Shown here one piece after another: positions 36,001-39,000 of a DNA stretch of 64,000 bases. The position numbers were made by a program. Origin of the DNA: Escherichia coli (GTDB lineage Bacteria > Pseudomonadota > Gammaproteobacteria > Enterobacterales > Enterobacteriaceae); the NCBI RefSeq assembly GCF_016903815.1, contig NZ_CP069973.1. The stretch is one strand, 5' to 3'. Positions within the stretch are counted from its first letter, which is position 1. Every line of letters begins with the position of its first letter.

Positions 36001-39000
36001 ACATCTGCTACGCCACGACTAACCGTCAGGAAGCGGTACGCGCCCTGGCAGAGCAGGCGGAAGTGGTGCTGGTGGTCGGTTCGAAAAACTCCTCTAACTC
36101 CAACCGTCTGGCGGAGCTGGCCCAGCGGATGGGCAAACGCGCGTTTTTGATTGACGATGCGAAAGATATCCAGGAAGAGTGGGTGAAAGAGGTTAAATGC
36201 GTCGGCGTGACTGCGGGCGCATCGGCTCCGGATATTCTGGTGCAGAATGTGGTGGCACGTTTGCAACAGCTGGGCGGTGGTGAAGCCATTCCGCTGGAAG
36301 GCCGTGAAGAAAATATTGTTTTCGAAGTGCCGAAAGAGCTGCGTGTCGATATTCGTGAAGTCGATTAAGTCATTAGCAGCCTAAGTTATGCGAAAATGCC
36401 GGTCTTGTTACCGGCATTTTTTATGGAGAAAACATGCGTTTACCTATCTTCCTCGATACAGACCCCGGCATTGACGATGCGGTCGCCATTGCCGCCGCGA
36501 TTTTTGCCCCCGAACTCGACCTGCAACTGATGACCACCGTCGCGGGTAATGTTTCGGTTGAGAAAACGACCCGCAACGCCCTGCAACTGCTGCATTTCTG
36601 GAATGCGGAGATTCCGCTCGCCCAGGGAGCCGCTGTGCCGCTGGTACGCGCACCGCGTAATGCAGCATCTGTGCACGGCGAATCGGGAATGGCTGGCTAC
36701 GACTTTGTTGAGCACAACCGAAAGCCACTCGAGATACCAGCGTTTCTGGCGATTCGTGATGCCCTGATGCGTGCACCAGAGCCTGTTACGCTGGTGGCCA
36801 TCGGCCCGTTAACCAATATTGCGCTGTTACTTTCACAATGCCCGGAATGCAAACCGCATATTCGCCGTCTGGTGATCATGGGCGGTTCCGCCGGTCGCGG
36901 CAACTGCACACCAAACGCCGAGTTTAATATCGCTGCCGATCCAGAAGCGGCAGCCTGTGTCTTCCGTAGCGGCATCGAAATCGTCATGTGCGGTCTGGAT
37001 GTCACCAATCAGGCAATATTAACCCCTGACTATCTCGCTACTTTGCCGGAGTTGAATCGCACCGGAAAAATGCTACACGCCCTGTTTAGCCACTACCGTA
37101 GCGGCAGTATGCAAAGTGGACTACGTATGCACGATCTTTGCGCTATTGCCTGGCTGGTGCGCCCGGACCTGTTCACTCTCAAACCGTGTTTTGTGGCAGT
37201 GGAAACTCAGGGCGAATTTACCTCAGGCACGACGGTTGTTGATATCGACGGTTGCCTGGGCAAACCTTCAAACGTGCAGGTGGCGCTGGATCTGGATGTA
37301 AGAGGCTTCCAGCAGTGGGTAGCTGAGGTGCTGGCTCTGGCGCTCTAATAATAAAACAAGGAGGTTTTAATGACGTATGGCGATGCATATCTGGCAGGGT
37401 GGAAAAATATCTTTAATTATAATGGCGTTGCTACCCGATTTGAGTTCTGGTCGTTTATCATCGGTAGCGCAATAATTTGCCTGCTACCGCTTTTAAGTTG
37501 GTTGTTTGCAATAACCATTGACGATGATTATGGCGCTTTCATTTTTTTTGCGCTGCCCACATCATTTATTTTAACGTTGATTTTTGCCGTGCCGGGAATG
37601 GCGTTAGGCTTCAGAAGGATGCACGATATCGGACGTTCAGGATGGTGGTTTTCCATCGGCGTGTTGATCCCTTATGCAGGCGTAATTCTGTTTATACTGT
37701 GCTGCCTGCCGTCAAAACCCCAAGAGCAGGCATAATGACAGACGGCGTGACGCAGTGGTTGGCGCGTCATGCCTTTCACTGATATTCCTCCCTGTTTATC
37801 ATTAATTTCTAATTATCAGCGTTTTTGGCTGGCGGCGTAGCGATGCGCTGGTTACTCTGAAAACGGTCTATGCAAATTAACAAAAGAGAATAGCTATGCA
37901 TGATGCAAACATCCGCGTTGCCATCGCGGGAGCCGGGGGGCGTATGGGCCGCCAGTTGATTCAGGCGGCGCTGGCATTAGAGGGCGTGCAACTGGGCGCT
38001 GCGCTGGAGCGTGAAGGATCTTCTTTACTGGGCAGCGACGCCGGTGAGCTGGCCGGAGCCGGGAAAACAGGCGTTACCGTGCAAAGCAGCCTTGATGCGA
38101 TAAAAGATGATTTTGATGTGTTTATCGATTTTACCCGTCCGGAAGGTACGCTGAACCATCTCGCTTTTTGTCGCCAGCATGGCAAAGGGATGGTGATCGG
38201 CACTACGGGGTTTGACGAAGCCGGTAAACAGGCGATTCGTGACGCCGCCGCCGATATTGCGATTGTCTTTGCCGCCAATTTTAGCGTTGGCGTTAACGTC
38301 ATGCTTAAGCTGCTGGAGAAAGCAGCCAAAGTGATGGGTGACTACACCGATATCGAAATTATTGAAGCACATCATAGACATAAAATTGATGCGCCGTCAG
38401 GCACCGCACTGGCAATGGGAGAGGCGATCGCCCACGCCCTTGATAAAGATCTGAAAGATTGCGCGGTCTACAGTCGTGAAGGCCATACCGGTGAACGTGT
38501 GCCTGGCACCATTGGTTTTGCCACCGTGCGTGGAGGTGACATCGTTGGCGAACATACCGCGATGTTTGCCGATATTGGCGAGCGTCTGGAGATCACCCAT
38601 AAGGCGTCCAGCCGCATGACATTTGCTAACGGTGCGGTAAGATCGGCTTTGTGGTTGAGTGGTAAGGAAAGTGGTCTTTTTGATATGCGAGATGTGCTTG
38701 ATCTCAATAATTTGTAACCACAAAATGTTTATGATGATGCAAAAATAACACATTTAATTTATTGATCATAAAGGGCTTTAATTTTTAGCCCTTTTATTTT
38801 TGGTATTATGTTTTTAAATTTCATGTAAGTGCTAAAAATTACACGTTTTGTCTTCTGTTTTTGTTGTTTTAATGTAAATTTTGACCATCTGGTCCACTTT
38901 TTTCTGCTCATTTTTATTTCATGCAATCTTCTTGCTGCGCAAGCGTTTTCCAGAACGGGTTATATGATCTTTTTGTCGCTTAATGTCTGTAAAACATGCA

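What the first reader, a model, noticed from the sequence alone, without database searches (positions are those of the whole stretch)
37349..37895. Extra small membrane-protein gene (DUF805) between rihC and dapB
A 121-codon ORF with a strong SD (AAGGAGG) starts 22 bp after the rihC stop. It encodes a protein with hydrophobic segments and the RRMHDIGRSGWW motif characteristic of the YhaH/YhaI family. From memory rihC and dapB are adjacent in K-12 with about 166 bp between them, so this is a roughly 380-bp strain-variable insertion. The family has no established function.
Basis: partly seen in the sequence, partly recalled or inferred. Interest (0 to 1): 0.5.

Follow-up and report, generated by a model that had tools for sequence, protein, structure and literature searches.

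The report
Old DUF805 membrane gene after rihC
This is a real small membrane-protein gene of the uncharacterised DUF805 (YhaH/YhaI) family, already annotated in about a fifth of complete E. coli genomes; it is an old enterobacterial gene that K-12 and most E. coli have lost, not a new insertion, so the finding is ordinary.

Summary
A 121-codon ORF (37370-37735, +) starts 21 nt after the rihC stop, behind AAGGAGG. It encodes a three-helix membrane protein that matches Pfam DUF805 (E 9e-20) and carries the RRMHDIGRSGWW motif. It is a distant paralogue of K-12 YhaH (33% identity) and YhaI (30%). K-12 has a 166-bp rihC-dapB spacer, the window 547 bp.

The same gene sits directly after rihC in E. 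albertii, E. whittamii, two other Escherichia lineages and Klebsiella. It is therefore ancestral, and most E. coli lost it. The net loss is 381 bp, with 424 bp replaced by 43 bp.

1047 of 5426 complete E. coli genomes keep it. About 940 carry an allele found in every named B2 strain listed. 106 carry the window's allele, only 84% identical in DNA. One genome has a recombinant.

RefSeq already annotates the identical protein (WP_021522992.1). There is no mobile-element signature and no close copy on plasmids or phages. The gene is under purifying selection that is weaker than on its neighbours (dN/dS about 0.3 against 0.05).

Its biochemical function stays unknown. Structure and defence-system searches gave nothing. 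Low interest; already known.

The parts
36434..37348 (+). rihC (ribonucleoside hydrolase), the upstream gene of the pair. Its last sense codon (CTC, Leu; 37343-37345) lies inside the segment that differs from K-12.
   Evidence: (RefSeq annotation of the 100% identical strain 7/2)
37346..37354 (+). Three consecutive in-frame stop triplets, TAATAATAA, ending rihC.
   Evidence: read directly from the sequence; the same in the B2, BR1220 and MOD1-EC7003 haplotypes
37358..37364 (+). Shine-Dalgarno sequence AAGGAGG, 5 nt before the ATG.
   Evidence: An SD-like AAGGAG/AAGGAA/CAGGGA and a 21-30 nt rihC-ORF gap are kept in all carriers, including Klebsiella.
37370..37735 (+). DUF805-family gene, 121 aa, encoding a three-helix membrane protein with RRMHDIGRSGWW at residues 82-93.
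   Evidence: RefSeq WP_021522992.1
37343..37766 (.). The 424-bp segment present here and replaced by 43 unrelated bp in K-12-type genomes (net 381 bp).
   Evidence: no remnant in K-12 above shuffled controls
37744..37773 (+). G+C-rich hairpin, GGCGTGACGC...GCGTCATGCC, 8 nt after the stop codon and followed by TTTCAC. It is probably the 3' end or terminator of the rihC-DUF805 transcript. K-12 keeps a hairpin at the same place with the same outer arms and two compensatory inner pairs.
   Evidence: The consensus terminator scan did not report it because there is no U tract.
37767..37895 (+). dapB upstream region. It is nearly invariant in all E. coli haplotypes and in E. albertii, and is untouched by the indel.
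37896..38717 (+). dapB, the downstream neighbour.

Best explanation
The ORF is a genuine gene for a 121-residue, three-helix inner-membrane protein of the DUF805 (YhaH/YhaI, COG3152) family. It is a third, distant paralogue of the two K-12 members.

Expression (inferred). It is the promoter-distal gene of a two-gene rihC unit. The gap is 21 nt, the ribosome-binding site is strong, and there is no hairpin between the genes. A conserved hairpin right after it closes the unit. It is therefore most likely transcribed with rihC and translated independently.

History (shown by comparison). The pair rihC-DUF805 predates the genus Escherichia. Most E. coli lineages carry one deletion-type haplotype that removed the SD and the ORF. 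That haplotype kept a rihC stop codon, the hairpin and the dapB control region. The named B2 strains examined and one clonal lineage keep the gene. That lineage includes an O102:H6 strain, which from memory is ST405 of phylogroup D. The two groups carry deeply diverged and partly recombinant alleles.

How it works (inferred only).
- By the positive-inside rule and the AlphaFold model, the N-terminus and the invariant RRxHDxGxSG loop at the end of helix 2 face the cytoplasm. The acidic DDD turn faces the periplasm.
- The functional site is most likely this conserved charged patch at the cytoplasmic membrane surface.
- My best guess is a dispensable accessory envelope protein, as YhaH appears to be (about 0.4).
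- A role coupled to RihC's nucleoside breakdown is less likely (about 0.2).
- A phage-exploited entry factor is least likely (about 0.1).
For: Gene and family:
- ORF, SD and motif.
- Pfam DUF805, E 9.3e-20.
- YhaH 33% identity, E 3e-13; YhaI 30%, E 2e-10.
- R82 and R83 invariant, and H85, D86, S90, G91, R23, G19 at least 90% conserved, in 73 diverse homologues.
- Three hydrophobic segments.
- AlphaFold model with pLDDT 93.6 and helices 23-50, 52-86 and 92-112.

Real and constrained:
- Exactly 121 codons in 8 lineages.
- dN/dS 0.24-0.35 for close pairs, against 0.01-0.07 for ispH, rihC and dapB.

Operon:
- 21-30 nt gap and an SD in all carriers.
- No terminator-like site between the genes.
- Conserved hairpin after the stop codon, with compensatory changes in K-12.

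Ancestral presence. The gene is in the same slot in:
- E. albertii;
- E. whittamii, Escherichia sp. MOD1-EC7003 and 'E. coli' SCPM-O-B-8794;
- Klebsiella.

Distribution in E. coli:
- 1047 of 5426 genomes carry it, always on the chromosome at this locus.
- 940 genomes carry the allele found in UTI89, Nissle 1917, LF82 and ATCC 25922.
- 106 genomes carry the window allele at 99% identity or more; all 60 of them that were listed are 100% identical.
- SMS-3-5, IAI39, 042 and K-12 lack it.

Not mobile:
- No flanking repeats.
- No close copy on plasmids or phages.
Against: - No expression data were available, so co-transcription with rihC is inferred from spacing only.
- The hairpin lacks a U tract, so it may not be an intrinsic terminator.
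- G+C content is 44.5% against 56% for rihC. That could suggest foreign origin, although it is also what a Phe/Ile/Leu-rich membrane protein gives.
- The gene was not found in E. fergusonii or E. marmotae representatives. The genome scan used only two N-terminal peptide patterns, so their absence is not established.
- Linkage to a nucleoside hydrolase is not seen for distant DUF805 homologues. This weakens any functional coupling to RihC.
- Loss in about 81% of genomes shows the function is dispensable.
Confidence: 0.85

Rival explanations
1. One reading: a roughly 380-bp strain-specific insertion, meaning horizontal acquisition of an extra gene into a rihC-dapB spacer that was ancestrally short.
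For: - The gene has lower G+C than its flanks: 44.5% against 56% and 53.5%.
- Only 19% of E. coli genomes have it.
- The two E. coli alleles are 16% apart in DNA, which could mean separate imports.
- rihC-dapB is a known island site in Klebsiella and Salmonella (PMC2735749).
Against: - The gene is in the same position, with the same 21-30 nt gap after rihC, in at least four other Escherichia lineages and in Klebsiella.
- There are no direct repeats, integrase or IS at the borders.
- There is no close relative on plasmids or phages.
- Divergence of the gene roughly tracks the species tree: 74% identity to E. albertii and 45% to Klebsiella.
- The allele divergence fits recombination among old haplotypes. 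rihC itself is mosaic and BR1220 carries a recombinant allele.
Confidence: 0.07
2. The protein is a host factor that phages use to cross the inner membrane. Presence/absence and fast divergence would then reflect selection by phages, with loss giving resistance.
For: - A preprint reports that a yhaH mutant of E. coli TK001 resists phages PhiWec188 and PhiWec190, and that complementation restores sensitivity (10.1101/2024.11.29.626071).
- This paralogue evolves far faster than its neighbours. Against Klebsiella it keeps 46% identity, where RihC keeps 83% and IspH 92%.
- dN/dS is about 0.3 against 0.05 for the neighbours.
- Most E. coli have lost it.
- DUF805 homologues occur in phages: PHROG 12855 and the Stx phages 75/02 and POCJ13.
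Against: - The evidence concerns YhaH, which is only 33% identical.
- dN/dS is well below 1.
- Variable sites are spread evenly over the cytoplasmic, membrane and periplasmic parts (0.36-0.48 in each) and are not concentrated in exposed loops.
- The periplasmic loop is only about 5 residues.
- There was no hit in PADLOC.
Confidence: 0.1
3. The protein works with RihC, for example as a small membrane component that handles nucleosides, bases or ribose, which would explain the conserved two-gene unit.
For: Tight rihC-DUF805 linkage with conserved spacing is kept from Klebsiella to Escherichia, although the sequence downstream of the pair differs between lineages.
Against: - Distant DUF805 members have unrelated neighbours.
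- K-12 and most E. coli keep an intact rihC without the gene.
- YhaH and YhaI are not next to nucleoside genes.
Confidence: 0.2

Closest known systems
E. coli K-12 YhaH (b3103) and YhaI (b3104), Pfam PF05656 DUF805 / COG3152
   Same: - Same length class: 121 and 118 aa.
- Same three-helix layout.
- Same N-terminal G-R-x-R-x-E-[YF]-W and RR[LM]HDxGxSGWW motifs.
- Significant pairwise similarity.
- Function equally unestablished.
   Different: - Only 30-33% identical.
- Different locus: after rihC, not in the yqjG-yhaJ region.
- Variable in E. coli, whereas yhaH and yhaI are K-12 genes.
- Much faster evolving than its neighbours.
RefSeq WP_021522992.1 and WP_000220881.1, 'DUF805 domain-containing protein' of E. 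coli (strain 7/2, and strain Ecol_867 carrying the allele of UTI89, Nissle 1917 and other B2 strains)
   Same: WP_021522992.1 is the identical protein at the identical locus. WP_000220881.1 is the B2 allele at the same locus.
   Different: Nothing for the first. The B2 allele is 76% identical in protein and 84% in DNA.
Klebsiella 'DUF805 domain-containing protein / inner membrane protein YhaI', encoded 3' of rihC beside the citrate-fermentation island site
   Same: Positional orthologue. The order is ileS-lspA-fkpB-ispH-rihC-DUF805, the protein is 121 aa, and an SD lies 30 nt after the rihC stop.
   Different: It is 45-46% identical. It is followed by a convergent LysR gene and citAB-type genes instead of dapB (PMC2735749).

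Membership tests
Pfam PF05656 DUF805 (YhaH/YhaI family) | Significant match to the family HMM over most of its length | tested here: met
   E 9.3e-20, score 71.6, residues 15-119 on model positions 2-106 of 111
Pfam PF05656 DUF805 (YhaH/YhaI family) | Conserved RR[LM]HDxGxSGWW motif and the N-terminal R-x-E-[YF]-W motif | tested here: met
   In an alignment of 73 homologues, R82, R83 and W27 are invariant, and G19, R23, H85, D86, S90, G91, P75 and P101 are at least 90% conserved.
Pfam PF05656 DUF805 (YhaH/YhaI family) | Three transmembrane helices in a protein of about 120 residues | tested here: met
   Hydropathy peaks at 26-50, 55-80 and 92-115. AlphaFold helices at 23-50, 52-86 and 92-99 plus 104-112, with pLDDT 93.6.
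Pfam PF05656 DUF805 (YhaH/YhaI family) | Direct similarity to the named members YhaH and YhaI | tested here: met
   BLASTP gives 33% identity and E 3e-13 for YhaH, and 30% and E 2e-10 for YhaI.
Pfam PF05656 DUF805 (YhaH/YhaI family) | Inner-membrane location and N-in/C-out topology | not testable with these tools
   Inferred only from charge distribution: the DDD turn against the RRMHDIGR loop.
Mobile or horizontally inserted cassette | Flanking direct repeats, a recombinase or IS, or copies on plasmids or phages | tested here: not met
   - Only short, chance-level repeats flank the segment.
- The only matches of 47% identity or more in the plasmid collection lie in records that look chromosomal: some are 0.8-5.4 Mb long, and the Klebsiella ones have the same LysR neighbour as the chromosomal locus (my inference).
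- Phage hits are at most 35% identical.
- The orthologue is at the same site in outgroups.
Known anti-phage defence systems (PADLOC-DB) | Match to any defence-protein model | tested here: not met
   0 families at E up to 1
Intrinsic (Rho-independent) terminator after the gene | G+C-rich stem-loop followed by a U tract | tested here: inconclusive
   A 10-13 bp G+C-rich stem is conserved and shows compensatory changes. The tail is UUUCAC and the consensus scan did not call it.
NCBIfam curated protein families | Match to a named equivalog or subfamily model | tested here: not met
   0 families at E up to 1

The most novel reading that the evidence does not exclude
This fast-evolving, frequently lost third DUF805 paralogue could be a phage entry or exclusion determinant at the inner membrane, as a preprint reports for YhaH. 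Its deep allelic split and its loss in most E. coli would then record long-term selection by phages. Alternatively, it could be a so far unrecognised membrane partner of the RihC nucleoside hydrolase.
Probability: 0.1. Interest if true: 0.45.

Novelty: already known. Interest (0 to 1): 0.15.

Why it matters
It matters little in itself. The gene is annotated in more than a thousand complete genomes and belongs to a large family of unknown function, with about 8500 cluster representatives.

Three modest points follow:
- The K-12 rihC-dapB arrangement is the derived state, so K-12 lacks an ancestral enterobacterial gene.
- The rihC/DUF805 segment is unusually diverged and mosaic within E. coli. 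It could serve as a lineage marker, and it can create spurious hits in association studies.
- A naturally variable DUF805 paralogue gives matched with/without backgrounds for anyone trying to assign a function to this family.

Tried and rejected
- NCBIfam: no model matched.
- PADLOC: no defence-system match.
- PDB by sequence: no match.
- Rfam on the spacer: nothing.
- Remnant of the gene in the K-12 43-bp filler: local alignment scores did not exceed shuffled controls.
- Mobile-element borders: only short repeats. One is a TAATGAC-containing 15-mer at both the start and the stop of the ORF. Recombination between its copies would not give the K-12 junction.
- Family-wide link to nucleoside hydrolases: three distant homologues had unrelated neighbours.
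- Localised diversifying selection: variable sites are evenly spread over the topological regions.
- Possible overlap of the indel border with the ArgP site of the dapB promoter: I recall from Bouvier et al. 2008 that the interval -118 to -81 is needed for lysine control. That paper and Marbaniang & Gowrishankar 2011 are not held, and I could not fix the transcription start, so this remains untested.

Full report
**1. What is in the sequence**

rihC runs from 36434 to 37348 and ends in three consecutive stop triplets, TAATAATAA. AAGGAGG lies at 37358-37364, five bases before an ATG at 37370. The ORF runs to a TAA at 37733-37735 and codes for 121 aa. dapB starts at 37896.

The gap after the rihC stop is 21 nt.

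The protein has three hydrophobic stretches, at about 26-50, 55-80 and 92-115. It carries GFRRMHDIGRSGWWF at residues 80-94. G+C content is 44.5%, against 56% for rihC and 53.5% for dapB.

**2. Family**

Pfam gives DUF805 (PF05656) at E 9.3e-20 over nearly the whole model.
- K-12 YhaH is 33% identical (E 3e-13) and YhaI 30% (E 2e-10). This is a third, distant paralogue.
- An exhaustive profile-free search finds 8526 cluster representatives at E up to 1e-3.
- In an alignment of 73 of them, W27, R82 and R83 are invariant. G19, R23, P75, H85, D86, S90, G91 and P101 are at least 90% conserved.
- AlphaFold on that alignment gives a confident model (pLDDT 93.6, pTM 0.83). It has a short N-terminal helix (3-12), long helices at 23-50 and 52-86, and a third helix kinked at P101 (92-99 and 104-112).
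- By charge, the DDD turn (51-53) should be periplasmic, and the N-terminus and the RRMHDIGR loop cytoplasmic. This is an inference.

Searches that gave no functional lead:
- NCBIfam, PADLOC and PDB sequence searches found nothing.
- PHROGs gives a 'membrane protein' moron family at E 1.9e-13.

**3. Distribution in E. coli**

Of 5426 complete genomes, 5425 match the flanks and 1047 contain the gene. It is always on the chromosome between rihC and dapB, and is annotated 'DUF805 domain-containing protein'.
- 106 genomes carry the window's allele at 99% identity or more. All 60 of them that were listed are 100% identical over the 422-bp query. They include strain 7/2, which matches the 801-bp query window 37200-38000 at 100%, and an O102:H6 isolate. 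From memory, O102:H6 is typical of ST405, phylogroup D.
- 940 genomes carry an allele 83-84% identical in DNA. It is found in UTI89, Nissle 1917, LF82, ATCC 25922 and O18, which are B2 strains to my knowledge.
- One genome (BR1220) has a 90% allele.
- K-12, BL21, O157-type strains, SMS-3-5, IAI39 and 042 have the 166-bp spacer.

**4. The junctions**

The window and K-12 are collinear up to ...GCTCTGGCG (37342) and again from TCATGCCTTTCAC (37767). Between these points the window has 424 bp and K-12 has 43 bp, a net difference of 381 bp.

The left break is in the last sense codon of rihC, giving ALAL* here and ALAS* in K-12. The 43 bp show no similarity to the gene above shuffled controls.

Part of the 43 bp forms a hairpin at the same place as the hairpin that follows the DUF805 stop in all carriers. 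It has the same outer arms (GGCATG/CATGCC) and two inner pairs changed on both sides. The loss therefore removed the SD and the ORF but left rihC with a stop codon and a 3' stem-loop.

The 127 bp upstream of dapB are almost invariant, even in E. albertii.

**5. Polarity**

The orthologue lies directly after rihC in:
- E. albertii;
- a metagenomic Escherichia contig;
- Escherichia sp. MOD1-EC7003, E. whittamii and the species representative labelled E. coli SCPM-O-B-8794;
- Klebsiella pneumoniae, K. quasipneumoniae and K. variicola.

In all of these the gap after rihC is 21-30 nt and holds a Shine-Dalgarno-like sequence.

What follows the gene differs:
- dapB in E. coli, E. albertii and MOD1-EC7003.
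- A cupin/PTS island in E. whittamii and SCPM-O-B-8794.
- A LysR gene and citAB-type genes in Klebsiella. This is the known citrate-island site (PMC2735749).

The rihC-DUF805 pair is therefore the conserved unit. Presence is ancestral and the K-12 state is a loss.

There are no mobile-element borders. There is no close copy on true plasmids or phages.

**6. Evolutionary rate**

| Comparison | DUF805 gene | Neighbours |
|---|---|---|
| dN/dS, close pairs | 0.24-0.35 | 0.01-0.07 (ispH, rihC, dapB) |
| Protein identity to Klebsiella | 46% | RihC 83%, IspH 92% |

The gene is constrained, but weakly. Variable sites are spread evenly over all topological regions.

rihC itself is unusually diverged within E. 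coli (dS 0.25-0.43) and is mosaic. The window and B2 are identical over 36900-37100 but only 84-86% identical over 36600-36800.

The BR1220 allele is B2-like in its first half and window-like in its second half. Two metagenomic proteins show the same kind of mosaic. Old haplotypes recombining at this locus explain the 16% allele divergence without separate imports.

**7. Function**

Nothing here establishes a function. The leads are:
- The conserved operon-like linkage to rihC. It is limited to the enterobacterial orthologues, and three distant homologues had unrelated neighbours.
- A preprint in which yhaH mutants resist two phages and complementation restores sensitivity (10.1101/2024.11.29.626071).
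- Salmonella yhaH is a target of the stationary-phase sRNA SdsR, and YhaH protein rises towards stationary phase (PMC5137417).

My rough odds:
- Dispensable accessory envelope protein acting through the conserved cytoplasmic-face RRxHD patch: about 0.4.
- RihC-coupled role: about 0.2.
- Phage-related role: about 0.1.

**8. Verdict**

The word 'insertion' has the polarity reversed.

The gene is already annotated: WP_021522992.1 is the identical protein, and WP_000220881.1 is the B2 allele. The finding is ordinary and already known, and of low interest.

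Noticed in passing
window 36434-37348 (rihC): rihC is unusually diverged and mosaic within E. coli. dS is 0.25-0.43 between the window, K-12 and B2, against 0.07-0.17 for dapB. Blocks of 100% identity (36900-37100, window against B2) alternate with blocks of 84-86% (36600-36800).
   Followed up: partly
L015 2023-2388 (E. coli BR1220); proteins P0003 and P0004: Recombinant DUF805 alleles. BR1220 and P0004 are B2-like in the first half and window-like in the second half. P0003 is the reverse. The P proteins come from short metagenomic contigs and could be assembly chimeras.
   Followed up: partly
L007 3525-6347 and L009 3522-6357: In E. whittamii and the Escherichia representative SCPM-O-B-8794, an island lies between the DUF805 gene and wherever dapB is. 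It encodes two cupin-type proteins (187 and 302 aa, resembling glucose-6-phosphate isomerase by my reading) and mannose-type PTS IIC/IID-like membrane proteins. dapB is not within 3 kb.
   Followed up: no
window 37767-37895: The 127 bp upstream of dapB are nearly invariant across E. coli haplotypes and E. albertii, far more conserved than synonymous sites nearby. The indel border abuts this block. From memory, ArgP-dependent lysine control of dapB needs -118 to -81, which might reach the border. The papers were not held, so this is untested.
   Followed up: partly
window 37368-37382 and 37733-37747: An imperfect direct repeat, TAATGACGTATGGCG and TAATGACAGACGGCG, brackets the ORF at its start and stop, 365 bp apart. 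Recombination between the copies would excise the ORF exactly, but that is not the K-12 junction. It is probably chance.
   Followed up: yes
window 37346-37354: rihC ends in three consecutive in-frame stop triplets (TAATAATAA) in the window, B2, BR1220 and MOD1-EC7003 haplotypes. K-12 has a single TAA.
   Followed up: no
Shigella phages 75/02 Stx (NC_029120.1, 16355-16666) and POCJ13 (NC_025434.1, 16343-16654): An unannotated ORF in these Stx-type phages encodes a DUF805 homologue, 35% identical over 91% of the query. This fits the PHROG 12855 'moron' membrane protein.
   Followed up: no
cluster of the window protein (P0183, P0187); L016 3050-3963: Signs of ongoing decay at the locus. Some genomes carrying the window-type allele have 45-aa truncated annotations. 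ETEC4075 has a frameshifted rihC.
   Followed up: no
literature: PMC10926693: A microcin-resistance association study lists rihC sequences among the hits for MccJ25 resistance in E. coli. Given the deep haplotype structure seen here, this may reflect lineage rather than function.
   Followed up: no
window 38720-38900 (dapB-carA spacer): The A+T-rich stretch after dapB is only 88-92% identical between E. coli haplotypes, while the carA promoter-proximal part (39000-39300) is 99-100% identical.
   Followed up: no
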